NCBI GenBank assembly: GCA_001799565.1
Contig: MGTS01000042.1
Span: forward strand, 157,793-221,792
Length of the DNA stretch: 64,000 bases
Reading direction: 5' to 3'
Source: Elusimicrobia bacterium GWA2_51_34
Lineage (GTDB): Bacteria; Elusimicrobiota; Elusimicrobia; Elusimicrobiales; UBA9959
Every line of letters starts with the position of its first letter. Position 1 is the first letter of the stretch. The notes under the pieces were generated by a model, which saw nothing but the letters and a program-made list of their open reading frames with translations, made no database searches and was not told the DNA's origin. The position numbers and the translations under genes were made by a program. Of the stretch, positions 9,292 to 62,028 are shown piece after piece.

Positions 9292-9397
9292 AAGGTCACA
9301 TGCCACAAGTCAGCTTAGTCTCAAGTTTCAAGTTACAAGTTCAAGCGAACTCACATTCTGGACTTGTGACCTGTGACCTGTGACTTGTGACTTGTAA
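9292..9397. repeat. Heptamer-arm hairpin, GTCACAR dialect, AACTCACATTCT loop
   Basis: Left arm is made of ..cacaagt/caagttt units and the right arm is gacttgtgacctgtgacctgtgacttgtgacttgtaa. The loop motif is shared with 26564.. and 29688... Confidence 0.8.
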
Positions 9398-10931: not shown

Positions 10932-10948
10932 ATGTTCTCCATAAATTT

Positions 10949-11061
10949 CAGTCTCAAGTCACAGGTCACAAGTCACAAGTGAAAACAAGACAATCACAAG
11001 TCCCCAGTAAACTGCAGAACTGCTATTTACTTGTGACCTGTGACTGGTGTCCTGTAACCTG
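10949..11061. repeat. Heptamer-arm hairpin, GTCACAR dialect
   Basis: Left arm ctcaagtcacaggtcacaagtcacaagt... and right arm acttgtgacctgtgactggtgtcctgtaacctg. Confidence 0.75.
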
Positions 11062-11065
11062 CGCT

Positions 11066-11890
11066 TCAAGACGTAGTCAAAACGTCTTGAAGCGCAAAGA
11101 CCAATCCCGCGCAGAAATCCGCGCCTGAGGTATGTCCGCTTTTAAAGGCGTCCGCCGCCGCGGAAAGTAATTCCCGCTTTCCGGAACCGCAAAGGGCGAT
11201 CATAAGCCGCTTTATTTTAAACGTTACCAAGCCCTCATATGAACAGCGCAGGAAGGTATTGGAAATAAGGTTTCCGCCCTCTGAATTTTTATAAACCGCC
11301 AGGGCCGCTTTTTCAGTGTTAAGGCGCAGGCTTTTGCGCGCGAAACCAAGGCCGGCAAGCATGCCGCTTAAAAAATCATCGCCGGAGGGGGTAAGCCCGA
11401 AGCCAAGTCCGCGCATCATTCTGGCTCCGGCGGCGTAAGCCCCGGCGCTTAACAAGCCAGCGGCTTTTTTCATGCGCAATAGCATCTTACGCTCAAAAAC
11501 CCGCCGGAACTCAAGTTCCGCGTCCGGGTCAAAAATAAAACGCATGCTTCGCGGCGGAGCTCCGACCGCGAAAAAAACCTTCAGGGTTTCAATATTTTCG
11601 CGGACAAGGGCCGGCTCCGCGTCCAGTTCCGGCACGGAAGAATCATACATGGCGTCGGGCGCCTTCCGCAGGCGGTTATCGTCAACATAAAAAGAGAATT
11701 TGGTGGCCCTGAATTTTCTGGCGCCCGCGGGGATCTGCTTGACAACCAGATTAACCGGCCCGGCGCCCGCGCCCGGCGAAACCAGTGAAATTATCAGGCG
11801 TCCCCTGCGGAAATTAACCGCGTGCTCAAATGCCGAATGCAGGCGGTAATCGCCTTCAGGGATATTGTCGCCGAATGAGAGTAAGTCCAT
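11066..11890 (-). CDS. DUF2877 protein (E. coli YlbF-like)
   Basis: 274 aa. Size and position beside fdrA-like and DUF1116 genes match the ylbF family. Assigned from context and recollection. Confidence 0.6.
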   Translation of the reverse strand: MDLLSFGDNIPEGDYRLHSAFEHAVNFRRGRLIISLVSPGAGAGPVNLVVKQIPAGARKFRATKFSFYVDDNRLRKAPDAMYDSSVPELDAEPALVRENIETLKVFFAVGAPPRSMRFIFDPDAELEFRRVFERKMLLRMKKAAGLLSAGAYAAGARMMRGLGFGLTPSGDDFLSGMLAGLGFARKSLRLNTEKAALAVYKNSEGGNLISNTFLRCSYEGLVTFKIKRLMIALCGSGKRELLSAAADAFKSGHTSGADFCAGLVFALQDVLTTS

Positions 11891-11894
11891 GGTT

Positions 11895-12049
11895 AGTCAC
11901 AGGTCACAAGTCACCAGTCACAAGTAATAAATAGGGAAAGTCCTGGGGCTCATGTCACAAAACACAGGTACCAAGTCACATGTAACAAGTCATCAGTAAC
12001 GGCAAAGAGCCTCCTTAATACTTGTGACCTGTGACTTGTGACTTGTGAC
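11895..12049. repeat. Heptamer-arm hairpin, GTCACAR dialect (double left arm)
   Basis: Left arm agtcacaggtcacaagtcaccagtcacaagt plus a second degenerate arm. Loop is ggcaaagagcctccttaata. Right arm is cttgtgacctgtgacttgtgacttgtgac. Confidence 0.75.
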
Positions 12050-12835: not shown

Positions 12836-12926
12836 GACTACAAGCTAGTAAGCTGGTAGGCTAGTATGCTGGTATGCTTTTTAAGGAACTCCTTATAAGG
12901 CCTACTAGCCTACCCGCCTACTAGCA
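12836..12926. repeat. Octamer-arm hairpin, CTACCAGC dialect, palindromic AAGGAACTCCTT loop
   Basis: Left arm agctagtaagctggtaggctagtatgctggtatgc, loop tttttaaggaactccttataagg, right arm cctactagcctacccgcctactagc. Shares a 27-nt identical run with 42143... Confidence 0.8.
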
Positions 12927-17587: not shown

Positions 17588-17608
17588 GTAATTTACCTCC
17601 GGTAAATT

Positions 17609-17641
17609 AAGTCACAAGTCACAGGTCACAAGACACAAGCC
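17609..17641. repeat. 3' arm (mRNA sense) of the stem bracketing four-helix gene 2, GTCACAR dialect
   Basis: aagtcacaagtcacaggtcacaagacacaagcc is complementary (about 21 bp with 1 mismatch) to each unit at 18053-18225. Confidence 0.75.
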
Positions 17642-17672
17642 AGCAGTAATTAGTTACAGGCAGTTCCGACAC

Positions 17673-18023
17673 CTAAAGACTTTTATAGAAACACCACAAC
17701 AAACGGCCTGTCTCACACCTTAACGTCTCAACCTCAGCAAAAACTTTTTCCGGCAAATATCCCACGTCTTTACAAAACTCAAGCAGGTATTCGGTCTCGG
17801 CAAGAGAACCAAGAGCTATGTTTGCAAACTGCTTTAATTCTTTATTCCCTTGCCTACCGGTTCCCTCAACTATATTCACAGGCACAGATAGTGCGGCACG
17901 CCTCAACTGGCTTGTAACCCCATAAACTTCATCTTTTGGAAAAGACGATGTAGCGGCATAAACGGCCTTTGCCAATGCATCCGCTTTCTTCCATACCTCA
18001 AGCTTTTTGTATCCCTTTTCCAC
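17673..18023 (-). CDS. Four-helix-bundle protein (23S rRNA intervening-sequence protein / Avd family), paralog 2
   Basis: 116 aa with GTG start. Same hallmark pattern (LEVWKKA...FPKDEVYGVTSQLRRAALSVPVNIVEGTGR...GSLAE). Confidence 0.85.
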   Translation of the reverse strand: MEKGYKKLEVWKKADALAKAVYAATSSFPKDEVYGVTSQLRRAALSVPVNIVEGTGRQGNKELKQFANIALGSLAETEYLLEFCKDVGYLPEKVFAEVETLRCETGRLLWCFYKSL

Positions 18024-18052
18024 GCTTATCCCTTCTGATTTCTGTCTTGTGA

Positions 18053-18225
18053 CAACATAAATTCTGCTACTTGTGACCTGTGACTTGTGACAACAGAAAT
18101 TCTGCTACTTGTGACCTGTGACTTGTGTCTTGTGACAACAGAAATTCTGCTACTTGTGACCTGTGACTTGTGTCTTGTGACAACAGAAATTCTGCTACTT
18201 GTGACCTGTGACTTGTGTCTTGTGA
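18053..18225. repeat. Tandem array, one 38-nt plus three 45-nt units (caacagaaattctgctacttgtgacctgtgacttgtgtcttgtga)
   Basis: Units start at 18053, 18091, 18136 and 18181. The three full units are identical or nearly identical. Each contains a GTCACAR-dialect arm. Confidence 0.9.
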
Positions 18226-18226
18226 C

Positions 18227-18254
18227 AGCAAAATGAGCGAAAGCTCATTTTGCT
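18227..18254 (-). terminator. 12-bp stem with GAAA-type tetraloop right after the cyclase stop codon
   Basis: agcaaaatgagc-gaaa-gctcattttgct. There is no clean U-run beyond the stem, so it may be a stabiliser or processing hairpin rather than a terminator. Confidence 0.3.
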
Positions 18255-19089: not shown

Positions 19090-19250
19090 TGCCATAAGCC
19101 GTAAGTTTCAGATACGGCTATTTGCCATAAGCCATAGGCAGAAAGACTGCCATAAGCTTTACGCCATATGCCATAGGCTTGTAAGGAACTCCTTAAAAGC
19201 TTACGGCCTATGGCGGGTGCGGCGCCCTTATGGCCTACGGCGTAACAAAG
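19090..19250. repeat. Hairpin, CCATARGC dialect, AAGGAACTCCTT loop
   Basis: Left part gccataagccgtaagtttcagatacggctatttgccataagccataggc..., loop gtaaggaactccttaaaagc, right arm ttacggcctatggcgg..cttatggcctacgg. Homologous in reverse orientation to 27403... Confidence 0.8.
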
Positions 19251-19336: not shown

Positions 19337-19367
19337 TGGATTCCTGCCAAAAACTTGCAGGAATGAC
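19337..19367 (-). repeat. Small palindromic element GTCATTCCYGC-N8-9-GCRGGAATCC
   Basis: Reverse complement reads gtcattcctgcaagtttttggcaggaatcca. A second copy is at 28275-28305. Confidence 0.6.
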
Positions 19368-19460
19368 AATCCTCAGTCACGGACAGCGCCATAGGCCCGC
19401 GACAAGCCAGTGTCACTGGAGGTGCCGTCTCAAAGGCCTATGGCCCTCAAACGGCCAGCG
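19367..19460 (+). repeat. ~95-nt palindromic element, intergenic copy A
   Basis: caatcctcagtcacggacagcgccataggcccgcgacaagccagtgtcactggaggtgccgtctcaaaggcctatggccc... is about 90 percent identical by eye to 40611-40706 inside yidC. Confidence 0.8.
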
Positions 19461-26563: not shown

Positions 26564-26663
26564 TACAAGTCACAAGTCACAAGCCATATTAATCTCAAGT
26601 TGCAGGTCACAAGTCTGAAGTAAACTCACATTCTGCACTTGTGACGTGTGACTTGTGACTTGC
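26564..26663. repeat. Heptamer-arm hairpin, GTCACAR dialect, AAACTCACATTCT loop
   Basis: tacaagtcacaagtcacaagcc...ctcaagttgcaggtcacaagtctgaagtaaactcacattctgcacttgtgacgtgtgacttgtgacttg. Confidence 0.8.
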
Positions 26664-27402: not shown

Positions 27403-27520
27403 TGCCATAGGCCGTATGCCATAGGCTTTATGAAGAATTTCCTTAATACGGCTTAAGAGCATATGGCCTATGGCAATAGCCGTATCTAAAATTTACGGCT
27501 TATGGCTTAAGCTTATGGCT
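27403..27520. repeat. Hairpin, CCATAGGC dialect
   Basis: Left arm ttgccataggccgtatgccataggc, loop tttatgaagaatttccttaatacgg, right part catatggcctatggcaatagccgtatctaaaatttacggcttatggcttaagcttatggc. Confidence 0.8.
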
Positions 27521-29687: not shown

Positions 29688-29786
29688 TGCAAGTCACAAG
29701 CCAGCATAATTTCAAGTTTCAGGGTACAAGTTTCAAGCAAACTCATATTCTTCACTTGTGTCCTGTGACTTGTGTCTTGTGACCTG
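29688..29786. repeat. Heptamer-arm hairpin, GTCACAR dialect, AAACTCATATTCT loop
   Basis: ttgcaagtcacaagcc...ttcaagtttcagggtacaagtttcaagcaaactcatattcttcacttgtgtcctgtgacttgtgtcttgtgacc. Confidence 0.8.
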
Positions 29787-35057: not shown

Positions 35058-35079
35058 CGGCCATTCCGGCCGCGCTTTA

Positions 35080-35220
35080 CGCCATAAGCCATAGGCGTAA
35101 ATACTGCCATAAGCTATAAGCCATATGCCATAAGCTTCTAAGGTGGCTCCTTAAAAAGCGTATGGCCTAAAGCATACGGCATATGGCGCGGCTGGAACAG
35201 CCGCCTATGGCTTATGGCAA
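35080..35220. repeat. Hairpin, CCATAAGC dialect
   Basis: Left arm cgccataagccataggcgtaaatactgccataagctataagccatatgccataagc, loop ttctaaggtggctccttaaaaagc, right arm gtatggcctaaagcatacggcatatggcg...gcctatggcttatggc. Confidence 0.8.
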
Positions 35221-37437: not shown

Positions 37438-37520
37438 TATAGAGTGGAGTGTTTAGAGTGTAGAGAATATAAGGGATTTCCTTAAAAACTCCCGACTCTC
37501 AACTCTAGACTCTCAACTAT
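37438..37520. repeat. Heptamer-arm hairpin, TAGAGTG/GACTCTC dialect
   Basis: Left arm tatagagtggagtgtttagagtgtagag, loop aatataagggatttccttaaaaact, right arm cccgactctcaactctagactctcaacta. Confidence 0.8.
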
Positions 37521-38380
37521 CATTTTATTCCAGGAGCTGATTCATTGTCCTTTACATAAGCTGCGGCGCAGGCGCGCGAGATAACGCGTATCCTTTTTAT
37601 CAGGTCCACCCGCTCCGATACCGAAATAGCGCCGCGCGCGTCAAGCAGGTTGAAATTATGAGAACATTTCATTACCAGATCATAGGCGGGCAGGTAACAG
37701 CTCATTTTTACCAGGCGGAAAACTTCTTTTTCCCAACGCTCAAAGTTGGACCGCAGATTCTCCACATCGGCCGCTTCAAAATTATAATGGGAAAACTGCT
37801 CTTCCTGCTCCTTATGCAGCTCGCCATAGGTAACGTGATTATTCCACTTTATATCAAAGATGCTGTCCTTTTTCTGCGCGAACATGGCCAGGCGCTCAAG
37901 GCCATAGGTTATTTCCACCGTTATGGGATTTAGTTCAAAAGAAGCCATGTGCTGAAAATAAGTGAACTGCGTTATCTCCATTCCGTCAAGCCACACTTCC
38001 CACCCCACACCCGAAGCGCCAAGCGTGGGCGATTCCCAGTCGTCCTCTATCCAGCGTATATCATGCTCGCTGTGATCTATGCCGACCGCTTTTAAGGAAT
38101 TAAGATATACCTGTTGGATATCCGCGCGCGGCGGTTTTATAATTACCTGGTACTGGTAGTACCTGCCAAGGCGGTTCGGGTTTTCACCGTAACGTCCGTC
38201 GGCCGGGCGGCGGCAGGGTTCCACATAGGCCGTACTGACAGGCAGCGCGGTAAGCGAACCAAAAAAAGTGGCCGGGTTATAAGTGCCGGCGCCCTTTTCA
38301 AGATCATAGGGCTGTATTATGGCGCAGCCCTGGCGGGCCCAGTACCGGTCAAATTTTAAAATTATATCCTGCAGATTCAT
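37520..38380 (-). CDS. glyQ: Glycine--tRNA ligase alpha subunit
   Basis: 286 aa. Highly conserved GlyQ N-terminus ([17 protein letters not shown]). Confidence 0.95.
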
Positions 38381-39197: not shown

Positions 39198-39215
39198 ATT
39201 TTATTTATACATATT

Positions 39216-39327
39216 CAGGTTCACGGTTCAGTGGTTCAAAGGTTCAACGGTTGGGAATCAGGGAACACAAAAAGACCGTGAAAAAAATAACCGTGAACCG
39301 CTGAACCGTGAACCTGGTAACCTGAAC
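39216..39327. repeat. Hairpin, GGTTCAC/GGTTCAG dialect
   Basis: Left arm caggttcacggttcagtggttcaaaggttcaacggttgggaatcagggaac and right arm ccgtgaaccgctgaaccgtgaacctggtaacctgaac. Confidence 0.8.
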
Positions 39328-39372
39328 AGGCGCTTACATTTTACCAAACATCCGGCGCGCCACAGGTTTGTT

Positions 39373-40478: not shown

Positions 40479-42134
40479 ATGCAGAAAAATCTTGTACTTG
40501 CCGTAGTTTTATCATCGGTGGTATATATTTTTTGGTACTCTTTTATGGAGAAGAGGATGCCTCCTCGCGCCGCCTCCTCCGTTTCATCGTCCTCTTACCC
40601 GCAAACCGCTCAATCCTCAGTCGCGGACAGCGCCAGAGGCCCGCGACAGGCCAGTGTCACTGGAGGTGCCGTCCCAAAGGCCTTTGGCCCACAAAACGGC
40701 CAAAACCCCGCGGCTGCAAACACCTCTTCCCCGCAGCCCCCGTCACAGCAGGCTTCATTACAGCCGACCTCAGGCGAACTGCCGGCCGATTGGAAAACAA
40801 AGGCCGCCCGCGTTAAGCTCGGCAAAGCGGAATATTTTATCCACCCCGCCGGAGCTTCCATAAAAAGCATGGTTTACGAAGGCCCGGTGGCCCCCATAGA
40901 ACTGGTGCTGTCGCCGGAAGACGGGCTGTTTTCAAGCTTTGAAGGCCTTACCTTTTCCATAAAGAACAAAAACGCGCAAAACCCGGAATTCTCGGCAAAA
41001 ACAAAACAGGGCGTGACCATATCAAAAAAATTCTTTCTAAACGGTCCCGACGGTATAAATTCCATTGAAATAACCGCCTCAAACGCCTCATCGGAACCCG
41101 CCGCGCTTGAACCCTGGACGCTTTCTATCGGCCCGGGCCTTGGTACGGCGCCCAGCGAGGAAAAAGAAAATCCCGGACTGACATACGCCCAATACACTTT
41201 TCAAGAACCGGGGAAAAAACACCCCACGATAAAAAAGCTGAAGGAAGACGTCCGGACGGAGCCGTGGGTGTGGGCCGGGGTGGATAACCGCTACTTTATC
41301 GCGGCGGTTATAGGCGGTGTTTTCGACAGGGACCGCCTTCTCTACTCCGCGGTGGAAATAAAAGGCAACAAGGTTCCTCGCCTCGCGATCCCATTCGGAG
41401 AGACAAAACTCGCTCCCGGAGCGGTAAAAACCTGGAAGCTTGATTTTTACGCCGGCCCGAAAGACTACGCCCTGCTTAAAAGCCTCGGCAGCGGGCTTGA
41501 CCGCGCGGTGGACTTCGGCTTCTTCGCTCCGCTGGCCAAACTTGCCGACTCCTCGCTTGGGTACTTTTACCGCCTGACCGGCAATTATGGCGTGGCCATA
41601 ATCATACTCAGCGTGCTTATACAGATAATGCTCTCCCCTTTAAGCATAAAAAGCTACAAATCCATGGCGCTGATGAAAAAAATACAGCCGGAAATGCAGG
41701 AGATACAGAAGCGCTACAAAGCCGACCCCAAACGCATGAACCAGGAGGTAATGGACCTTTATAAGCGCCACGGCACCAATCCTCTTGGCGGCTGCCTGCC
41801 GATGCTCCTGCAGATACCGGTCTTTTTCGCGCTATTTACGGCACTGAGAAATTCCTGGAATTTACACGGCGCGCCGTTTATTTTCTGGATAAAAGACTTG
41901 TCGTCCAAGGACCCGTATTATGTGCTGCCGCTGGTAATGGGAGCGATAATGTTTTTTCAGCAGACTTTGAACCCGCAGGCGGGCGACCCTGCCCAGGCGA
42001 AGATGATGAAATGGATGCCGGTTATTTTCACGTTCATGTTTCTCAGCTTCCCCGCGGGGCTTGTAATGTACTGGCTTATAAACAGCATGTGGGGATTTGC
42101 CCAAACGATGTATCTGCAGAAAAAGATGGCGTGA
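40479..42134 (+). CDS. yidC: Membrane protein insertase YidC
   Basis: 551 aa. N-terminal TM segment, large periplasmic region and a C-terminal 60-kDa insertase core (GCLPMLLQIPVFFALF). Carries a repeat-derived in-frame segment at 40611-40706. Confidence 0.9.
   Translation: MQKNLVLAVVLSSVVYIFWYSFMEKRMPPRAASSVSSSSYPQTAQSSVADSARGPRQASVTGGAVPKAFGPQNGQNPAAANTSSPQPPSQQASLQPTSGELPADWKTKAARVKLGKAEYFIHPAGASIKSMVYEGPVAPIELVLSPEDGLFSSFEGLTFSIKNKNAQNPEFSAKTKQGVTISKKFFLNGPDGINSIEITASNASSEPAALEPWTLSIGPGLGTAPSEEKENPGLTYAQYTFQEPGKKHPTIKKLKEDVRTEPWVWAGVDNRYFIAAVIGGVFDRDRLLYSAVEIKGNKVPRLAIPFGETKLAPGAVKTWKLDFYAGPKDYALLKSLGSGLDRAVDFGFFAPLAKLADSSLGYFYRLTGNYGVAIIILSVLIQIMLSPLSIKSYKSMALMKKIQPEMQEIQKRYKADPKRMNQEVMDLYKRHGTNPLGGCLPMLLQIPVFFALFTALRNSWNLHGAPFIFWIKDLSSKDPYYVLPLVMGAIMFFQQTLNPQAGDPAQAKMMKWMPVIFTFMFLSFPAGLVMYWLINSMWGFAQTMYLQKKMA
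40611..40706 (+). repeat. ~95-nt palindromic element, copy B, in-frame inside yidC
   Basis: caatcctcagtcgcggacagcgccagaggcccgcgacaggccagtgtcactggaggtgccgtcccaaaggcctttggccc... encodes QSSVADSARGPRQASVTGGAVPKAFGPQNGQ. Confidence 0.8.
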
Positions 42135-42142
42135 GTTTATAA

Positions 42143-42231
42143 GGCTGGTAAGCTAGTAGGCTAGTATGCTGGTATGCTTTTTAGGAGTTACTAAAAGGCC
42201 TTCTGGCCTACCCGCTTACCAGCATACTAGC
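42143..42231. repeat. Octamer-arm hairpin, CTACCAGC dialect
   Basis: Left arm ggctggtaagctagtaggctagtatgctggtatgc, loop tttttaggagttactaaaagg, right arm ccttctggcctacccgcttaccagcatactagc. Confidence 0.8.
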
Positions 42232-44735: not shown

Positions 44736-44759
44736 GTAATATTTCAGAAAGCGTGGGGG

Positions 44760-44853
44760 AAGCTAGTAGGCGTGTATGCTTGTAGGCCTAATTTAGGAAC
44801 TCCACAGAAAGCATACCAGCATACAAGCTTACCAGCCTACCAGCAAACTTCAC
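44760..44853. repeat. Octamer-arm hairpin, CTACCAGC dialect
   Basis: Left arm gctagtaggcgtgtatgcttgtaggcc, loop taatttaggaactccacagaaa, right arm gcataccagcatacaagcttaccagcctaccagc. Confidence 0.8.
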
Positions 44854-45611: not shown

Positions 45612-45722
45612 TAGCGGGCAGGCTGGTAGGCGAGTAGGCCAGTAGGCTGGTATGCGGGTAAGTTTTTTGTAGAATTCACAATTAGGCCTACAAGCATACA
45701 CGCCTACCAGCCTACTAGCTGG
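45612..45722. repeat. Octamer-arm hairpin, CTACCAGC dialect
   Basis: Left arm gcgggcaggctggtaggcgagtaggccagtaggctggtatgcggg and right arm aattaggcctacaagcatacacgcctaccagcctactagc. Confidence 0.8.
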
Positions 45723-45743: not shown

Positions 45744-47639
45744 ATGCCTTTTTTCAACTGCCCTGAAAAGTTTGACGTTATAGTGGCCGGCGGCGGACAC
45801 GCCGGCTGCGAAGCCGCGCTTGCCGCCGCCCGGATGGGCGCTAAAACTCTTCTTATAACCCAGGATCTGGATACCATAGCCCAGATGTCCTGCAACCCCT
45901 CCATAGGCGGCGTGGGCAAGGGCCAGTTGGTAAGAGAAATTGACGCACTGGGCGGCCAGATGGCGAAAGTAGCCGACGCCTCGGCGCTCAGCTATCACAT
46001 GCTTAACCTCTCACGGGGGCCGGCCGTGCAGTCCCCGCGCGCTCAATGCGATAAAAAACTATACCAGTTCACCATGAAAAGTGTTCTTGAAAAACAAAAA
46101 AACCTGCGCCTTGTGCAGGATGAAGCCGCGTCCGTGTGGACGAAAGGCTCTAAACTTGAGGGAATAATTACAGTCCGCTCCACGCGTTACAAAGCAGGAG
46201 CCGTGGTGCTTAGCGCCGGAACTTTTCTGCGGGGAGTAATACACATAGGGATGCGCGACTTCAGGGGGGGAAGATACAACCACCCGCCAAGCGACGAGCT
46301 TTCAAAAAGCCTTAAATCCCTGGGCCTGAAACTGGGAAGGCTGAAAACCGGCACCCCCATGCGCCTGAGCGGCGCAAGCATAGATTTCACAAAATGCGCG
46401 GAACAGAAACCCGACAATCCTTTTGAGCCTTTTTCGCATTTTACCCCGCCACCTGCTTCGGGCAGAATGCCCGTTTTCGGGCAGGCCGATAGCGGGGTTA
46501 CGGCGTCGCAAGTTAAGGCTTTTATGCCGTGCTGGATAACCCGCACCAACTTAAAAACTTCCGCCGTAATAAAAGCCAACCTGTCAAAATCCCCGCTTTA
46601 CTCCGGCAAGATAAAATCCACTGGCCCGCGCTACTGTCCGTCCATAGAGGACAAGGTGGTAAAATTCCCTCATCATCCGGAGCACCACCTTTTTCTTGAG
46701 CCGGAAGGTTATAATACGCTTGAGTATTACGTGAACGGCCTTTCCTCAAGCCTGCCGGAAGAAACTCAAACTGAATTTGTGCATACCATCGCCGGCCTTG
46801 AAAAAGCGGAACTTATGCGGCCCGCTTACGCCATAGAATATGATTTTTCTTGCCCGTTCCAGCTTAAATATTCGCTTGAGAGCAAGCTTGTGGACGGCCT
46901 GTTCCTGGCAGGCCAGTTAAACGGCACCACCGGCTACGAAGAAGCCGCCGCCCAGGGACTTATGGCGGGCGTAAACGCCGCGCTTAAAATTCAGGGGCGC
47001 GCCCCTTTGATCTTAGGCCGGGACGAGGCCTATATAGGCGTGATGATAGACGACCTGATAGCCCGCGATCTGGACGAACCCTACCGTGTTTTCACTTCAA
47101 GGGCGGAATACCGCCTGCTACTGAGAAAAGATAACGCCGACCTGCGGCTCTCCGGTCACGGCTTTAAACTGGGGCTTCTTGACGCGGGGCTGGCTCCGGC
47201 TTTTGAGCGTTACCGCCGCGCGGCCAAAGAGCTGCTTGAAAACCCGAAGGCCCGGCCCGGCCCGGACTTAAAGCTTTCACCCTGGAGCGCGGCTAAAGCC
47301 GCCAAAACCGCGCAAATAGAACGGGATTACGCGCCTTATATAGAAAGGAACCGCAAAGAAGCCCAAAAACTGAAAACTTTTGACCAGGTGCTCATACCCG
47401 GAACACTTGACTTTAACGCCATAAAAGGGCTGCCGCTTGAAGCGAAACAGAAACTTAGCCGTTCGCGCCCGCTTAATATGGCGCAGGCTTCGCGCATAAG
47501 CGGAGTTACACCGGCGGATCTGCAGTTGCTCCGGATAATAGTAGAAAAATATAATTACTCAGGTTCACGGTTCAGCGGTTCAACGGTTGGAAATCAGGGA
47601 ACGCAAATACTTGCGGAAAAACATGGAAAAAGAAATTGA
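45744..47639 (+). CDS. mnmG: tRNA uridine 5-carboxymethylaminomethyl modification enzyme MnmG
   Basis: 631 aa with FAD-binding [10 protein letters not shown] and the conserved [11 protein letters not shown] motif. The C-terminal about 25 aa are encoded by a GGTTCAC-dialect half element. Confidence 0.95.
47561..47608. repeat. Half element (left arm only) of the GGTTCAC dialect inside the mnmG 3' end
   Basis: caggttcacggttcagcggttcaacggttggaaatcagggaacgcaaa matches the left half of 39216... Confidence 0.7.
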
Positions 47640-48282: not shown

Positions 48283-48384
48283 GTTTGGAGTTTAGGAGTT
48301 TGGAGTTCAAGAGTTTTTGAGTTTAGAGTCCTCAAACTCCCAACTCCCCAACTCTCAACCCCTGACTCTCAACTCCAAACTATC
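48281..48384. repeat. Heptamer-arm hairpin, GGAGTTT/AAACTCC dialect
   Basis: Left arm gagtttggagtttaggagtttggagttcaagag and right arm ctcaaactcccaactccccaactctcaacccctgactctcaactccaaac. Confidence 0.8.
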
Positions 48385-48408
48385 AATACTCGTTATGGAG
48401 ATAATACA

Positions 48409-48921: not shown

Positions 48922-48940
48922 TATGACTTTGGAAGAGATA

Positions 48941-49058
48941 GTTAGTGGAGAGTGTAGAGTTGAGAGTGTAGAGTGTGAAGAGAACTCTCTTCCAATCTCT
49001 ACACTATCTACTTCAATTATTTCTGCTCTACACTCCAGACTCTACACTCTCCACTATC
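48941..49058. repeat. Heptamer-arm hairpin, TAGAGTG dialect (outer 17 bp perfect)
   Basis: tagtggagagtgtagag ... ctctacactctccacta, with further gagagtgtagagtg / ctctacac units inside. Confidence 0.8.
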
Positions 49059-49082
49059 AACTTCTTATTACGCTCTCAACGA

Positions 49083-53608: not shown

Positions 53609-54490
53609 ATGCCCCACCCTAAATATTTTGACGCGCATAACCACATTCAAAACTATTCGGGCCCGTGTGAAGCCGGCGCAGGGCGCGCGGGACTGATACT
53701 CTTAAACGGCACAGCGCCGGATGACTGGCAAAAGGTCCTGGACCTGGCCGCCGCCGACGAGCGGATTTGGCCCTGTTTCGGCCTGCACCCCTGGTTCATA
53801 AATAAAGCCGGACCGCGCTGGCTTGAAGAACTGGAACTGTTTCTTAAGCGCGCGCCCTCCTGCGTGGGCGAGATAGGCCTGGACGGCGCGAAAAATACCG
53901 GCGCCAAGCGGCAGGAGGAAGTTTTCACGTCCCAGCTTAAACTGGCCGCCCGGCTCAGGCGGCCCGTCTGCCTGCATTGCGTAAAAGCCTGGGGAAAGAT
54001 GTTGAAAATAATTAAAGAAGAACTGCCGGGAACTTTCATGCTGCACTCTTACGGCGGCCCGGCCGAAATGATAAAAGAATTTTCCGCGCTGGGCGCTTAT
54101 TTTTCGTTCGGCTCCGCGATAATGGATCCGAAAAGGGGGAAATTACGCGAAGCGCTTTTAACCGTTCCTCCGGATCGCCTGCTTTTTGAAACCGAGCCGT
54201 CCTACTTCGCCAAGGCTTCGAAGGGACGTGGTCCTGCGAAGCTATTGTCGAGCGAAGCAAACCCGTCCTCCTTCGCCAAGGCTTCGGAGGGACGTAGTCC
54301 TGCGAAGCTGTTGTCAAGCGAAGCAGACCCGTCCTCCTTCGCCAAGGCTTCGGAGGGACATGGTCTGCCGGTATTGATTTCCGCAGCGGCGGACGTTATG
54401 GGCAGACCCGCCCAGGAACTTGCGGAACTTTCCTGGGTCAATGGAATTAAATTTTTAGGAGATATAGTAGATGTAAATAGTAAAGAGTAA
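53609..54490 (+). CDS. TatD-family metal-dependent hydrolase carrying an in-frame tandem repeat insertion
   Basis: 293 aa with an N-terminal FDAHNH metal motif and a TatD-like core. Residues around 197-254 are encoded by the 66-nt repeat. Confidence 0.8.
   Translation: MPHPKYFDAHNHIQNYSGPCEAGAGRAGLILLNGTAPDDWQKVLDLAAADERIWPCFGLHPWFINKAGPRWLEELELFLKRAPSCVGEIGLDGAKNTGAKRQEEVFTSQLKLAARLRRPVCLHCVKAWGKMLKIIKEELPGTFMLHSYGGPAEMIKEFSALGAYFSFGSAIMDPKRGKLREALLTVPPDRLLFETEPSYFAKASKGRGPAKLLSSEANPSSFAKASEGRSPAKLLSSEADPSSFAKASEGHGLPVLISAAADVMGRPAQELAELSWVNGIKFLGDIVDVNSKE
54197..54369 (+). repeat. 66-nt palindromic element, 2.6 tandem copies, in-frame in tatD
   Basis: Units start at 54197, 54263 and 54329. 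Units 1 and 2 differ at 6 of 66 positions. They encode PSYFAKASKGRGPAKLLSSEAN / PSSFAKASEGRSPAKLLSSEAD / PSSFAKASEGHG. Confidence 0.9.
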
Positions 54491-54576
54491 AGCGTAAATA
54501 GTCACTTCTACTCACCATTCACTCTTTACTTTTTACCCTTCACTCTTTACACTTTACGCTTTACTCTTTACTTTCT
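54467..54576. repeat. Heptamer-arm hairpin, GTAAAGM/CTTTAC dialect
   Basis: Left arm gtagatgtaaatagtaaagagtaaagcgtaaatagtcac and right arm cactctttactttttacccttcactctttacactttacgctttactctttac. The left arm encodes the TatD C-terminus. Confidence 0.8.
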
Positions 54577-55333: not shown

Positions 55334-55474
55334 CGAATAGCGAATAGCGACGGAGTTTCTTAAATAAAGTTCCCGTTCCTCCCCAGTCGCGGACAACGCC
55401 AGAGGCCCGCGACAGGCCAGAGTCACTATTCGCTAACCCCTATTCGCTATTCGCTTTCCTACTATTCGCTACGC
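55321..55474. repeat. Heptamer-arm hairpin, GCGAATA dialect, with a partial copy of the 95-nt element in its loop
   Basis: Left arm aggggttagcgaatagcgaatagcga, loop contains cagtcgcggacaacgccagaggcccgcgacaggccagagtcact, right arm attcgctaacccctattcgctattcgc. Confidence 0.8.
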
Positions 55475-59452: not shown

Positions 59453-60307
59453 ATGGGGAAAATTAAAATACTGTGTATGGTAATCCTGGCAGCTGGCGCC
59501 GTATTCGCTGCCATGGAAGGGTACCGCTACATCACCGCGAGCATCTCAAAAAGCGCCGTGCAAAAATCAAAACGACGCATAGCCGTGATCGGGTTTTCTT
59601 CGGAAACCGGCCGCAAGAACCGTTCAAGCGCCATAGTAACTGAGCGCCTGACCGTTGAAATGGCCTCCAACCCTAAAATTGAAGTTATTGAGCGGGCGAA
59701 ACTGGATCAGGTTCTGGAAGAGCAGAACCTTCACGCCAAAGGCGTGATGGACCAGCAAACCACGAAAAAAATAGGCCATATACTTGGAGTTGACGCCGTG
59801 GTTATGGGCACGGTTATAAATGTAAACAGCGATGAGGTGGAAATCAACGCCCGCCTGGTTGACACCCAGAACGCCCAGGTACTGAAAGCCGTAACCAAAA
59901 CTGTAAGAAAAGACTGGGACGAAGGAAATTCTTCCTGGGATTCAATGGCGATGAACATGGATGTGGATCCTGAAAACATACCATCACTCCTGCCTGATAC
60001 TTTTAAAGAATTGGACTGGGATTCCAACTGCCGCGGATACTCGCTGGAAGAGGTTAAATTTATTGAACTGGCGGTGGACTTCAAGGCCAAAAAGACCGCC
60101 CTGGAAGTAAAAAAAGGAACGCTGGATCCCCAACAAATAACCAGAAACCCGGGGAGCGAAATAAAAAATGACGCCCTGCGAAAAATATTTTATAACAGAC
60201 TGACACAGTGGCATAAAAACCCGGAACTAAAAAACTTGACCCCGAAAGAAGAAGCGCTTGTGGCGAAGGTAGAGCCGCTGCTAGACACCTACCCCTGCCG
60301 TCAATAA
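59453..60307 (+). CDS. Periplasmic FlgO/CsgG-N/LpoB-like domain protein
   Basis: 284 aa. N-terminal hydrophobic anchor followed by IAVIGFSSETG...VIERAKLDQVLEEQNL...LGVDAVVMGTV...ARLVDTQNAQVL, a pattern I associate with the FlgO/LpoB-type fold. Tentative. Confidence 0.5.
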   Translation: MGKIKILCMVILAAGAVFAAMEGYRYITASISKSAVQKSKRRIAVIGFSSETGRKNRSSAIVTERLTVEMASNPKIEVIERAKLDQVLEEQNLHAKGVMDQQTTKKIGHILGVDAVVMGTVINVNSDEVEINARLVDTQNAQVLKAVTKTVRKDWDEGNSSWDSMAMNMDVDPENIPSLLPDTFKELDWDSNCRGYSLEEVKFIELAVDFKAKKTALEVKKGTLDPQQITRNPGSEIKNDALRKIFYNRLTQWHKNPELKNLTPKEEALVAKVEPLLDTYPCRQ

Positions 60308-60314
60308 GGACCGG

Positions 60315-60437
60315 CTCAGGTTGTCGGGTTCCCGGTTCAGCGGTTCACGGTTAAAGATTAAATAATTTAATATTTTTATTTTCACAATCTTCTTATTCCT
60401 TGATTTTCAACCGTTGAACCATTGAACCGTGAACCAA
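60315..60437. repeat. Hairpin, GGTTCAC dialect with an AT-rich loop
   Basis: Left arm ctcaggttgtcgggttcccggttcagcggttcacggtt and right arm caaccgttgaaccattgaaccgtgaacc. Confidence 0.75.
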
Positions 60438-60459
60438 AGCAGTTATACATGTCCACAAA

Positions 60460-62028
60460 ATGACCCTCACCGACATTCTAAAAAATACGGGGGAAACTCC
60501 GGGCGCGGACGGGTCTGCTTCGCTTAACAATAGTTTCGCAGGACCACGTCCCTTCGAAGCCTTGGCGAAGAAGGACGGCGGCGTGGAAATAACGGCCATT
60601 ACGAACGATTCGCGCAAGGCGGTTAAAGGCGCGCTTTTTTTCGCCCTGCCCGGCGCCAAAACCGACGGAAGCCTCTATATCCGGCAAGCCCTTGAAAACG
60701 GCGCTTCAGCCGTTGTTTCACAAAACGCCGCGGACCCCGCTTTGAAAACCGCCTACCCCTCGGCCGTCTGGCTTCGCACCCCGGACATTTCAGCGCTCCT
60801 TTCCACCGCAGCGGCCAACTTTTACCATAACCCTTCGGCAGAGCTTAAAGTAACAGGGCTTACCGGCACAAAAGGAAAAACCACCACCGCCTACCTTCTT
60901 GAAAGCATACTGGCCGCGCACGGCGACAAGCCGGGCGTGGCAGGCACCATAAACTACCGCGTGAACGGCAGGGTGCTTTCAAAAGCCGCGAACACCACCC
61001 CGCTCGCCCACGACCTGCAGGCCCTGCTTCGCGCTATGGTCGGCGCCGGGGCGAAAAGCGCCATAATGGAAATTTCGTCCCACGCGCTCGCGCTCAAACG
61101 CGCCGACAATGTGCGATTTGACTGCGCCGTATTCACAAACCTGCAAAGCGACCACATGGATTTCCACAAAACCCGCGGGGACTACTTCCTTGCCAAGGCC
61201 CGGCTTTTTGAACTGCTGGCCGCTTCGCCTAAAAAAAACAAAACCGCGGTTATAAACGCGGACGACGAAATGGCCGCTGAACTTATAAGCGGGCTTTCCC
61301 GCGGCCTGAAAACCCTTACCTTTGCCGTTGACGGGAAAGCGGACTTTAAAGCCTCTGCGGTACAAATACTGGAACAAAAAACGCTTTTCAACCTTAACGC
61401 GCCCGGGGGTAAAACGCCTGTCGTCCTTAACCTGCTAGGCCTGCATAATGTTTACAACGCGCTCGCCGCGATAACGGCGGCGTGCGCCATGGGCGTAGGG
61501 CTTGAAACCGCCGTTAAAGGCGTCCAGGCGCTCACACGGGTGCCGGGGCGCCTTGAGCGTATAGACCTGGGGCAGAATTTCACCGTATTTGTGGACTACG
61601 CCCACACCGGCGCGGCCCTTGAAAGCGTGCTTACAAATTTAAAAAAACTGCCGCATGCGAAAATAATCACCGTTTTCGGCTGCGGGGGCGACCGCGACCG
61701 CACCAAACGCGCGCCCATGGGAGCGGTTTCCTGCTCTTTAAGCGACCGGGTTATAATAACAAGCGACAATCCTAGGACCGAGGACCCCGCCCGGATTTTC
61801 TCGGATATTGAAAAAGGACTCGCCGGTGTATTCTTAAATTATGAAACACTCCCCTGCCGCCGGGAAGCCATTTTCAAGGCCATAGCCGCCGCTTCAAAAG
61901 GCGACATCGTGCTTATAGCCGGAAAAGGCCACGAGGACTATCAGATACTAAAGAACGAAACTATCCATTTCAGCGACCGGGAAGAAGCCGAAGAAGCGAT
62001 AAAAAAGAAAATGCAAAATGCAAAATGA
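60460..62028 (+). CDS. murE: UDP-N-acetylmuramoyl-L-alanyl-D-glutamate--2,6-diaminopimelate ligase
   Basis: 522 aa with the GTKGKTTT P-loop, a Mur ligase middle and C-terminal domain pattern, and a DNPR motif. The N-terminus carries one reverse-oriented copy of the 66-nt element. Confidence 0.9.
   Translation: MTLTDILKNTGETPGADGSASLNNSFAGPRPFEALAKKDGGVEITAITNDSRKAVKGALFFALPGAKTDGSLYIRQALENGASAVVSQNAADPALKTAYPSAVWLRTPDISALLSTAAANFYHNPSAELKVTGLTGTKGKTTTAYLLESILAAHGDKPGVAGTINYRVNGRVLSKAANTTPLAHDLQALLRAMVGAGAKSAIMEISSHALALKRADNVRFDCAVFTNLQSDHMDFHKTRGDYFLAKARLFELLAASPKKNKTAVINADDEMAAELISGLSRGLKTLTFAVDGKADFKASAVQILEQKTLFNLNAPGGKTPVVLNLLGLHNVYNALAAITAACAMGVGLETAVKGVQALTRVPGRLERIDLGQNFTVFVDYAHTGAALESVLTNLKKLPHAKIITVFGCGGDRDRTKRAPMGAVSCSLSDRVIITSDNPRTEDPARIFSDIEKGLAGVFLNYETLPCRREAIFKAIAAASKGDIVLIAGKGHEDYQILKNETIHFSDREEAEEAIKKKMQNAK
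60511..60578 (-). repeat. 66-nt palindromic element, single reverse-oriented copy, in-frame in murE
   Basis: The reverse complement ccgtccttcttcgccaaggcttcgaagggacgtggtcctgcgaaactattgttaagcgaagcagaccc differs from tatD unit 1 at about 5 of 66 positions. In murE it encodes GSASLNNSFAGPRPFEALAKKDG. Confidence 0.9.

What the first reader, a model, noticed from the sequence alone, without database searches (positions are those of the whole stretch)
60511..60578. The same 66-nt element is inserted in the opposite orientation, still in-frame, in the N-terminus of essential murE
- **Match:** The reverse complement of 60511-60578 matches tatD unit 1 at about 61 of 66 positions.
- **Translation:** In murE it is read on the other strand as GSASLNNSFAGPRPFEALAKKDG.
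- **Position:** It lies between a typical MurE N-terminus (MTLTDILKNT...) and the conserved ITNDSRKAVKGALFFALPG block.
- **Why it matters:** The element stays open in both orientations and is tolerated in an essential peptidoglycan enzyme. This implies selection on the element for stop-free frames, the defining oddity of RPE-like selfish DNA.
Basis: partly seen in the sequence, partly recalled or inferred. Interest (0 to 1): 0.65.

Follow-up and report, generated by a model that had tools for sequence, protein, structure and literature searches.

The report
Palindromic repeat inserted in-frame in murE
A 66-base palindromic repeat has landed inside the start of the cell-wall gene murE of an uncultured groundwater bacterium without breaking its reading frame; related bacteria carry copies of the same repeat inside many other enzyme genes, so this is a new family of a kind of selfish DNA already known from Rickettsia.

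Summary
Window 60513-60578 is a 66-nt unit, 61/66 identical to tatD unit 1 in reverse complement. It reads in the murE frame as SASLNNSFAGPRPFEALAKKDG.

- **Insertion:** None of 55 MurE orthologues has these 22 residues, and the closest empty site differs by exactly 66 nt. The conserved N-terminus (M-x-L-x-x-I/L-L/F) lies upstream, so the element sits inside the ancestral coding sequence.
- **Anatomy:** The unit is two 33-nt hairpins in opposite orientation, like a REP dimer or a small MITE. It is flanked by a 3-nt direct repeat, usually CCG.
- **Family:** I found 21 distinct loci in groundwater Elusimicrobia. Fourteen lie inside long ORFs, including alanine racemase, alpha-amylase, QueG, IspE (twice) and TatD. 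They occur in both orientations, in length classes of 66, 81 and 84 nt, all multiples of three.
- **Not supported:** The claim of selection for stop-free frames. Only 4 of 6 frames are open, which happens by chance with P of about 0.2.
- **Not settled:** Whether murE is still translated from the upstream ATG. NCBI calls a TTG start inside the element.

This is a new family of a known kind (Rickettsia palindromic elements, intragenic REP dimers). The first hairpin also belongs to an undescribed hairpin family found across several phyla and in viral contigs.

The parts
60513..60578 (-). The 66-nt unit in murE. In unit orientation it reads CCGTCC...CAGAC on the minus strand. On the plus strand it is read as codons 19-40 of murE (SASLNNSFAGPRPFEALAKKDG).
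   Evidence: The gap against the empty site L039 is exactly 66 nt.
60546..60578 (-). Module A hairpin: CGTCC-TTC-TTC-GC-CAAG-GC-TTCG-GAA-G-GGACG.
   Evidence: Stem pairs are kept in 96.9% of cells, and pair 8/25 covaries as TTC/GAA versus TCC/GGA. The consensus unit folds with z of -2.3 to -3.7. Across the wider hairpin family the tip stems change in a compensatory way.
60513..60545 (-). Module B hairpin: GGTC-C-TGC-GAA-GCT-ATTGTTA-AGC-GAA-GCA-GACC. It has the same architecture as module A read on the other strand.
60507..60512 (.). GGACGG, a direct repeat of 60573-60578. The inner CGG (CCG in unit orientation) is the candidate 3-bp target-site duplication.
   Evidence: A CCG follows the unit in most copies; L036 has CTG at both ends and L016 has ACG at both ends. 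The filled and empty tatD sites compare cleanly.
60460..62028 (+). murE ORF counted from the ancestral ATG (522 aa).
   Evidence: The AlphaFold model has mean pLDDT 91.5, and the insert (residues 19-37) scores below 50.
60562..60564 (+). TTG inside the element. This is the start codon in NCBI's annotation of this genome (488-aa product MAKKDGGVEITAI...).
   Evidence: P0001.
60583..60585 (+). An AAGGA lies 7 nt upstream, at 60571-60575, inside the element.
54197..54365 (+). Tandem array of 2.55 units in tatD: u1 54197-54262, u2 54263-54328, partial u3 54329-54365. It is read as PSYFAKASKGRGPAKLLSSEAN PSSFAKASEGRSPAKLLSSEAD PSSFAKASEGHG.
   Evidence: DNA alignment to a filled and an empty orthologous site.
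53609..54490 (+). tatD-family hydrolase ORF that hosts the array (293 aa, against 245-264 aa for orthologues without an insert).

Best explanation
The 66 nt at 60513-60578 are a copy of a small, non-autonomous, palindromic mobile repeat. It resembles a REP dimer or a miniature transposon (MITE).

**What is shown**
- The unit is two 33-nt imperfect hairpins in opposite orientation.
- It is bracketed by a 3-nt direct repeat, usually CCG.
- It occurs at many unrelated loci in a clade of groundwater Elusimicrobia.

**What is inferred about murE**
- The copy in murE is a recent insertion private to this lineage (Elusimicrobia bacterium GWC2_51_8).
- It landed in the linker between the short N-terminal helix of MurE and the first strand of domain 1.
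- Because the net addition is 66 nt and the frame it landed in has no stop, the gene stays open.
- Most likely it is still translated from the ancestral ATG at 60460. That would give a MurE with a 22-residue flexible surface loop.

**What is inferred about the family**
- The element spreads by transposition, catalysed in trans by an enzyme I did not identify.
- Insertions that break genes are purged. Those in tolerated loops, in the two frames that encode hydrophilic peptides rich in Pro, Gly and Ser, persist.
- Once resident, a copy can expand in tandem, as in tatD.
For: **Insertion into murE**
- All 55 aligned MurE orthologues (51-83% identity) lack the 22 residues.
- The closest empty site, L039, differs by a gap of exactly 66 nt.
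- M1 and L3 are conserved in at least 90% of orthologues, and the motif M-x-L-x-x-I/L-L/F lies upstream of the insert.
- In the AlphaFold model, residues 1-10 score pLDDT 92, residues 19-37 score below 50, and residues 41 onwards score about 95.

**Family**
- There are 33 copies at 21 distinct loci, 92-100% identical to the consensus, in Elusimicrobia genome bins and groundwater or sediment metagenomes.
- Fourteen loci lie inside ORFs of at least 260 aa. Ten have Pfam support: alanine racemase with both domains flanking the insert, an alpha-amylase domain spanning it, QueG, IspE twice at different sites and in different orientations, glycosyltransferases, TatD and MurE.
- Four loci are intergenic, and three of these lie just downstream of genes.

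**Mobility**
- A filled and an empty tatD site compare cleanly: GAG|CCG|CCC becomes GAG|CCG-TCC...GAC|CCG|CCC.
- The flanking 3-nt repeat is CCG in most copies, CTG at both ends in L036 and ACG at both ends in L016.
- Length classes are 66, 81 and 84 nt.

**Structure**
- The consensus folds better than shuffles, z of -2.3 to -3.7.
- 96.9% of stem cells are paired.
- The tip of the same hairpin type varies with compensating changes in 34 distinct variants (43 Watson-Crick pairs against 7.7 +/- 3.0 in shuffles).

**Frame use**
- Among genic loci, frame use is 8, 5, 1 and 0 over the four open frames (p about 0.01).
Against: - No transposase or autonomous parent element was found. The rest of the genome could not be searched.
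- The terminal inverted repeat is weak (8 of 11 by eye).
- The constant CCG could be a target preference rather than a duplication. Only two copies (L036, L016) are informative.
- For murE specifically there is no expression or protein evidence.
  - The ATG at 60460 has no Shine-Dalgarno motif. However, only 16 of 49 gene starts in the window have one.
  - NCBI annotates a TTG start inside the element.
  - The element supplies an AAGGA 7 nt before GTG 60583.
- Because the insertion is recent, conservation of the upstream 18 codons says nothing about selection since the insertion.
- The frame-use test rests on 14 loci. Four of their host ORFs have no Pfam support.
Confidence: 0.7

Rival explanations
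1. The element is now in the leader of murE, not in its coding sequence. After the insertion, translation moved to TTG 60562 or GTG 60583. The element supplies an AAGGA ribosome-binding motif, and the ancestral first 18 codons are a decaying remnant or a short upstream ORF.
For: - NCBI's annotation of this genome starts at TTG 60562 (P0001, 488 aa).
- AAGGA lies 7 nt before GTG 60583.
- The ATG at 60460 has no Shine-Dalgarno motif.
- Solved MurE structures align only from residue 41-46 onwards.
- Di Nocera et al. 2013 (PMC3733652) note that many REPs at ORF N-termini may in fact lie outside the gene.
Against: - The upstream frame is intact and continuous with murE.
- The N-terminal motif is conserved in at least 90% of 55 orthologues, and AlphaFold models it with pLDDT 92 packed on domain 1.
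- About two thirds of gene starts in the window lack a Shine-Dalgarno motif anyway.
- The frame used in murE is the one used most often for copies that lie in the middle of enzymes, where read-through is the only option.
- The NCBI start is probably a by-product of choosing starts by homologue length. This last point is my inference.
Confidence: 0.25
2. This is not transposition. The murE copy arose by ectopic gene conversion or template switching from another copy, such as the tatD array, primed by the short homology GGACGG/CCGTCC.
For: - The murE copy is flanked by a 6-nt repeat identical to the start of the unit.
- The copies are nearly identical to each other.
- No transposase was found.
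Against: - Copies sit at 21 unrelated loci in several genomes, with precise boundaries and the same 3-nt flank.
- Two copies carry matching non-consensus flanks (CTG at both ends, ACG at both ends).
- The murE copy is closer to the family consensus (65/66) than to either full tatD unit (61/66 to unit 1; 89% to unit 2).
Confidence: 0.07
3. The 22-residue peptide is a selected functional module, for example a linker or an interaction motif, that host proteins have recruited. It is not a merely tolerated passenger.
For: - Frame use is non-random and favours two hydrophilic frames.
- Copies are tolerated in many enzymes.
- Tandem expansion has occurred in TatD.
Against: - The hosts are functionally unrelated.
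- The same DNA is used in three different frames and both orientations, giving unrelated peptides.
- Intergenic copies exist.
- The insert is predicted to be disordered.
- Close orthologues do without it.
Confidence: 0.05

Closest known systems
Rickettsia palindromic elements (RPEs; Ogata et al. 2000, as summarised in PMC10969869 and PMC3733652)
   Same: - Interspersed palindromic repeats with no coding capacity of their own.
- Repeatedly found in-frame inside unrelated housekeeping genes whose orthologues lack them.
- They add a short peptide that is expected to be a tolerated surface segment.
   Different: - Different phylum: free-living groundwater Elusimicrobia rather than obligate intracellular Alphaproteobacteria.
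- Shorter: 66-84 nt against about 100-150 nt.
- A two-hairpin dimer architecture, with a 3-nt flanking direct repeat.
- Both orientations and three frames are used.
- Sequence similarity to RPEs was not tested. Nothing beyond an internal CGTC tetranucleotide suggests any.
Intragenic REP dimers and BIME/REPIN-type elements (Di Nocera et al. 2013, PMC3733652; Bertels and Rainey 2011, PMC3116915)
   Same: - The basic unit is a 20-40-nt imperfect palindrome (33 nt here).
- Two units in opposite orientation form the common arrangement.
- Intragenic dimers encoding 20-30 amino acids have been reported in several phyla.
- Intergenic copies lie just downstream of genes.
   Different: - There is no unpaired GTAG or CGTC tag. 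CGTC is present but lies inside the stem.
- No associated RAYT transposase gene was seen.
- Most copies found here are inside genes, whereas REPs are mostly extragenic.
- A flanking 3-nt repeat is present, and RAYT-type transposition is not expected to leave one.
- The encoded peptides are absent from the intragenic REP table of that paper.
Bacterial MITEs (for example Correia, Nezha, ERIC; review PMC10969869)
   Same: - Small and non-coding.
- Imperfect inverted ends.
- A short flanking direct repeat.
- Presence/absence polymorphism between orthologous sites.
- Occasional in-frame fusions with host ORFs.
   Different: - Shorter than the 70-300 bp given for MITEs in PMC3733652.
- The inverted ends are only about 8 of 11 matched.
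- No parent insertion sequence is known.
- The internal structure is two REP-like hairpins rather than a deleted insertion sequence.

Membership tests
RPE-like intragenic palindromic repeats (a functional class) | A repeated element present at many unrelated loci. | tested here: met
   21 distinct loci, 92-100% identical to the consensus.
RPE-like intragenic palindromic repeats (a functional class) | Inserted in-frame in genes whose orthologues lack it. | tested here: met
   - murE: 55 orthologues lack it, and the gap is exactly 66 nt.
- tatD: filled and empty sites compared directly.
- Pfam domains lie on both sides of the insert in alanine racemase, alpha-amylase, QueG and IspE.
RPE-like intragenic palindromic repeats (a functional class) | Palindromic, able to form a hairpin. 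| tested here: met
   z of -2.3 to -3.7 against shuffles; 96.9% of stem cells paired.
Rickettsia RPE families 1-10 (homology) | Sequence similarity to a described RPE consensus. | not tested
   No RPE consensus was available in the tools. Length and host phylum both differ.
REP / REPIN (mobilised by a RAYT transposase) | A 20-40-nt imperfect palindrome, commonly as inverted dimers. | tested here: met
   Two 33-nt modules of the same architecture in opposite orientation.
REP / REPIN (mobilised by a RAYT transposase) | An unpaired terminal GTAG or CGTC tag (PMC3733652). | tested here: not met
   There is no GTAG. CGTC occurs at unit positions 2-5 but pairs with GGACG as part of the stem.
REP / REPIN (mobilised by a RAYT transposase) | A cognate RAYT (IS200/IS605-type Y1 transposase) gene flanked by the repeats. 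| not testable with these tools
   Only the 64-kb window and fragments of 1-15 kb were available. ORFs next to the intergenic copies gave no transposase hit.
REP / REPIN (mobilised by a RAYT transposase) | Predominantly extragenic location. | tested here: not met
   14 of 21 loci lie inside ORFs of at least 260 aa.
MITE | Target-site duplication. | tested here: inconclusive
   The 3-nt repeat is CCG in most copies, CTG at both ends in L036 and ACG at both ends in L016, with one-base mismatches in L017, L018 and L029. This is also compatible with site-specific insertion 5' of CCG.
MITE | Terminal inverted repeats matching a parent insertion sequence. | tested here: inconclusive
   The ends TCCTTCTTCGC and GTCTGCTTCGC match at 8 of 11 positions (read). 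No parent insertion sequence was identified.

The most novel reading that the evidence does not exclude
Module A of the element belongs to an undescribed hairpin family that spans several phyla: CCTCC-TTCGC-[self-complementary tip, often with a TTCG loop]-GCTTCG-GAGG.

- Its members were found in Elusimicrobia, Omnitrophica, Planctomycetes, candidate-phyla-radiation bacteria, Alphaproteobacteria and viral contigs.
- Its 3' arm is a Shine-Dalgarno sequence and its 5' arm is the complement of one.
- On this reading the hairpins are mobile RNA-level modules that hide a ribosome-binding site.
- In Elusimicrobia a dimer whose length is a multiple of three has become able to colonise coding sequence. 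In murE it may have donated a new ribosome-binding site and start codon.
Probability: 0.15. Interest if true: 0.75.

Novelty: new member of a known kind. Interest (0 to 1): 0.5.

Why it matters
- **Reach of the phenomenon:** Colonisation of protein-coding genes by palindromic selfish DNA is not special to Rickettsia and a few Proteobacteria. It also occurs in free-living, uncultured Elusimicrobia, with an unusually compact 22-codon two-hairpin unit.
- **A natural experiment:** The family shows which loops of essential enzymes (MurE, alanine racemase, IspE, QueG, TatD) tolerate insertions.
- **Annotation:** The element misleads start-codon annotation. NCBI's murE start lies inside it.
- **Strain typing:** It gives a marker for strain-level polymorphism.
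- **A lead:** The link to a hairpin family spread across phyla and viral contigs could be followed into where REP-like elements come from.

Tried and rejected
- **Rfam:** No family matched the window at gathering scores. At relaxed thresholds the tatD array gave only a chance-level hit, E = 7.9.
- **Folding the murE and tatD copies with their own flanks:** z of +0.03 to -1.1, not significant. Only the consensus unit with its CCG ends folds significantly better than shuffles.
- **Peptide searches:** The tandem peptide against the 5.8-billion protein index found 2 candidates. The full HMMER scan of 1.84 billion representatives found 3 hits, one of them an unrelated repeat protein. Short inserts are invisible to these searches.
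- **Promoter and terminator scan upstream of murE:** Nothing found.
- **Selection for open frames:** Rejected, P of about 0.2 by shuffling.
- **Membership of the CGTC-tagged REP superfamily:** Rejected, because CGTC is paired in the stem.
- **Carriage on known plasmids or cultured phages:** No blastn hit in PLSDB or INPHARED.
- **Literature:** No paper holds the sequence or peptide strings, and no paper links Elusimicrobia with such repeats.
- **Transposase next to intergenic copies:** None found.
Full report
**Observation**

The reported match is real.
- Window 60507-60579 is 93% complementary over 73 nt to 54196-54268 in tatD, and 92% complementary to the next tandem unit.
- No shuffle of the window matches the murE copy. 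blastn finds no other copy in the 64 kb.
- The ORF 60460-62028 reads MTLTDILKNTGETPGADG-SASLNNSFAGPRPFEALAKKDG-GVEITAITNDSRK.
- A second assembly of the same organism (MGUJ01000061, locus L038) is identical through the region.
- The window comes from Elusimicrobia bacterium GWC2_51_8. Its TatD is 100% identical to the protein of locus tag A2X34_06040.

**Is it an insertion into the coding sequence?**

Yes, relative to the ancestral gene.
- The best 60 MurE hits all start M-x-L-x-x-(I/L)-(L/F) and reach (E/D)I(T/S)xIxNDSR after about 20 residues. None carries the 22 extra residues.
- In a 56-sequence alignment, every orthologue has a gap where the window has its extra residues. M1 and L3 are at least 90% conserved.
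- The DNA of the closest empty site (L039, encoding P0004; 80-83% protein identity to the window MurE by BLASTP and by the alignment) aligns with a single gap of exactly 66 nt.
- An AlphaFold model built on that alignment is confident overall (mean pLDDT 91.5). That includes residues 1-10 (pLDDT 92, helix 3-6) and everything from residue 41. Residues 19-37 score below 50. The insert is modelled as a low-confidence, probably flexible stretch between two ordered parts.
- Solved MurE structures align only from residue 41-46 onwards.

**Anatomy of the element**

I aligned all copies I could collect.
- The unit is CCGTCCTTCTTCGCCAAGGCTTCGAAGGGACG TGGTCCTGCGAAGCTATTGTTAAGCGAAGCAGAC.
- It consists of two 33-nt imperfect hairpins.
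  - Module B reads GGTC-C-TGC-GAA-GCT-loop-AGC-GAA-GCA-GACC.
  - Module A, read on the other strand, has the same layout: CGTCC-C-TYC-GAA-GCC-TT-GGC-GAA-GRA-GGACG.
  - The unit is therefore an inverted dimer. It can fold either as two hairpins or as one long hairpin.
- The consensus with its CCG ends folds better than shuffles as RNA or DNA, on either strand (z of -2.3 to -3.7).
- The murE and tatD copies folded with their own flanks are not significant.
- Across 13 distinct copies, 96.9% of stem cells are paired. The copies are so similar that only one pair covaries, TTC/GAA against TCC/GGA.
- A longer class replaces the CAAG tip of module A with a longer self-complementary tip, giving 81 or 84 nt. 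All three lengths are multiples of three.

**The family**
- A scan of species-representative genomes with the module A core found full units in two Elusimicrobia genome bins (PEXO01 and JAHJSU01).
- A metagenome scan with the module junction found 22 more stretches in groundwater and sediment samples.
- After removing duplicates there are 21 distinct loci, 92-100% identical to the consensus.
- Fourteen loci lie inside ORFs of at least 260 aa. Ten of those have Pfam support:
  - alanine racemase, with both domains flanking the insert;
  - an alpha-amylase catalytic domain spanning it;
  - QueG, between DUF1730 and the 4Fe-4S domain;
  - IspE in two different genomes, at different sites, in different orientations and frames;
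  - two glycosyltransferase-type proteins;
  - a long membrane protein with C-terminal TPR repeats;
  - TatD;
  - MurE.
- Four loci are intergenic, and three of these lie shortly downstream of a gene. Three loci are unclear.

**Frames**
- The consensus has four open frames, one conditionally open frame and one closed frame.
- Shuffles of the unit reach four or more open frames in 17-21% of trials. The stop-free property is therefore not evidence of special selection.
- Frame use among the 14 genic loci is skewed:
  - eight use the murE frame (SASLNNSFAGPRPFEALAKKD);
  - five use the tatD frame (PSFFAKASKGRGPAKLLLSEAD);
  - one uses LLRLTIASQDHVPSKPWRRRT;
  - none uses VLLRQGFEGTWSCEAIVKRSR.
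  - Against equal use of the four frames, p is about 0.01.
- The two favoured peptides have more Pro, Gly and Ser than the other two (7 against 5) and contain no Cys or Trp. I read this as filtering after insertion. The sample is small, and four host ORFs have no domain support.

**Evidence for mobility**
- The tatD site gives a clean comparison.
  - The empty orthologue (L090) reads GAG CCG CCC.
  - The filled orthologue (L089, the 81-nt variant) reads GAG CCG-TCC...CAGAC CCG CCC.
- In murE, the sequence left after removing 66 nt has the same length as the L039 empty site.
- Nearly every copy starts with CCG and is followed by CCG. L036 has CTG at both places and L016 has ACG at both places.
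- This fits a 3-bp target-site duplication with a preferred target. Insertion next to a fixed CCG cannot be excluded.
- No transposase was identified.

**tatD**
- Orthologues in this clade read LLFETE followed by a variable loop of roughly 9-20 residues and then xxVISAAA. They are 245-264 aa long.
- The window has two full units and a 37-nt partial third unit in place of that loop, a net gain of 123 nt.
- P0126 has one 81-nt unit at the same site, and P0127 has a truncated one.
- The site has therefore been occupied for some time and has been remodelled by tandem duplication and deletion.

**Where does murE start now?**

This is the one point the sequence cannot settle.
- Points that favour a downstream start:
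  - The ATG at 60460 has no Shine-Dalgarno motif.
  - NCBI's record starts the gene at TTG 60562, inside the element.
  - GTG 60583 has an AAGGA 7 nt upstream that belongs to the element.
- Points that favour the upstream ATG:
  - Only 16 of 49 long ORFs in the window have a Shine-Dalgarno motif, against a background of 8%. Its absence at 60460 therefore says little.
  - The upstream frame is intact and encodes the conserved N-terminal motif.
  - The frame in use is the one most often read through in the middle of other enzymes.
- I put about 0.65-0.7 on the upstream start.

**Comparison with what is known**
- In-frame palindromic repeats in genes are known from Rickettsia (RPEs; reviewed in PMC10969869).
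- More generally, Di Nocera et al. 2013 (PMC3733652) report intragenic REP dimers encoding 20-30 residues in several phyla. They also caution about copies at ORF N-termini.
- The present element fits that kind but not their families.
  - It has no unpaired GTAG or CGTC tag.
  - Most copies found here are genic.
  - It has a flanking 3-nt repeat.
  - Its peptides are absent from their table of intragenic REPs.
- No paper in the library holds the sequence, and Rfam has no match.
- I therefore file it as a new member of a known kind.

**Beyond the finding**

The module A core is not confined to Elusimicrobia.
- The exact 22-mer occurs in Omnitrophica, Planctomycetales, Vogelbacteria, Saccharibacteria and Alphaproteobacteria genome bins. 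In most of these hits the bases just upstream, which were not part of the search pattern, complement GGAGG wholly or in large part.
- A near-identical 21-mer occurs in 14 viral contigs.
- The general form CCTCC-TTCGC-[tip]-GCTTCG-GAGG occurs in 45 viral contigs, as 52 distinct hairpins with 34 different tips.
- Tips of 7-13 nt are self-complementary far beyond chance (43 Watson-Crick pairs against 7.7 +/- 3.0). Many close on a TTCG loop.
- In several viral contigs the hairpin begins a few bases after a TGA triplet. In some, an ATG follows within about 25 nt. Its arms are CCTCC and GGAGG.
- I did not pursue what these hairpins do. They have no match in PLSDB plasmids or in cultured phage genomes.

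Noticed in passing
L001-L015; L040-L088: The module A hairpin belongs to a hairpin family spread across phyla: CCTCC-TTCGC-[variable self-complementary tip, often with a TTCG loop]-GCTTCG-GAGG. It occurs in Omnitrophica, Planctomycetales, candidate-phyla-radiation bacteria, Alphaproteobacteria and 45 viral contigs. The hairpins are often arranged as head-to-head dimers. In several viral contigs the hairpin begins a few bases after a TGA triplet, and in some an ATG follows shortly after. The arms look like a Shine-Dalgarno sequence and its complement. I found no published description.
   Followed up: partly
window 60305-60456; also 39203-39336 and 47541-47624: A large hairpin lies immediately upstream of murE (z = -5.35). 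Its arms are arrays of the 8-mer GGTTCANC. The same oligomer family recurs in two other intergenic spacers.
   Followed up: partly
window 9304-9400, 10937-11054, 11882-12049, 17597-18233, 26573-26662, 29690-29779 (CTTGTGAC type); 12836-12893, 42136-42191, 44754-44844, 45613-45720 (GCTGGTAGGC type); 19091-19186, 27475-27506, 35074-35143 (GCCATAAGCC type); 37457-37532, 48343-48386, 48930-49066 (ACTCTMNACTCT type); 54473-54571 (GTAAAGAG type, between tatD and the next gene): Many intergenic spacers carry inverted repeats whose arms are short-period (7-8 nt) oligomer arrays. There are several distinct oligomer families, each shared by a set of spacers. The pattern is unusual and was not explained here.
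   Followed up: no
window 19367-19451, 40611-40695, 55377-55461: A different 85-nt interspersed repeat (CAATCCTCAGTCRCGGACAGCGCCAKAGGCCCGCGACA...) is present in three copies, 62-93% identical to the reference copy (family D5).
   Followed up: no
window 60562 (NCBI start of murE); P0001: The public annotation of this genome starts murE at a TTG inside the repeat. That cuts off the conserved N-terminus. It is probably an effect of choosing starts by homologue length.
   Followed up: yes
window 59453-60307: A CsgG/FlgO-like lipoprotein gene sits between ftsI and murE. The relative L039 has ftsI directly followed by murE, then a response regulator, murF, mraY, murD, ftsW and murG. The cell-division and cell-wall gene cluster is therefore interrupted in this genome.
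   Followed up: no
L023 (contig Ga0315280_10225124), ORF spanning the 81-nt copy: By my recollection, the host ORF ends with a motif (CPDCNLEMKPVAVILNDKEFVRLLTHLGLP) that resembles the C-terminus of IS91-family transposases. Pfam gave no hit. This may simply be an element inserted in a transposase gene.
   Followed up: no
L089 70-1938: A Tn5/IS4-type transposase gene (DruA, Tnp_DNA_bind and Dimer_Tnp_Tn5 domains) lies directly upstream of the tatD orthologue that carries the 81-nt variant.
   Followed up: no
window 54188-54196 and TatD orthologues: The whole Elusimicrobia TatD clade has ETE where well-studied TatD proteins have the metal-binding ETD motif.
   Followed up: no
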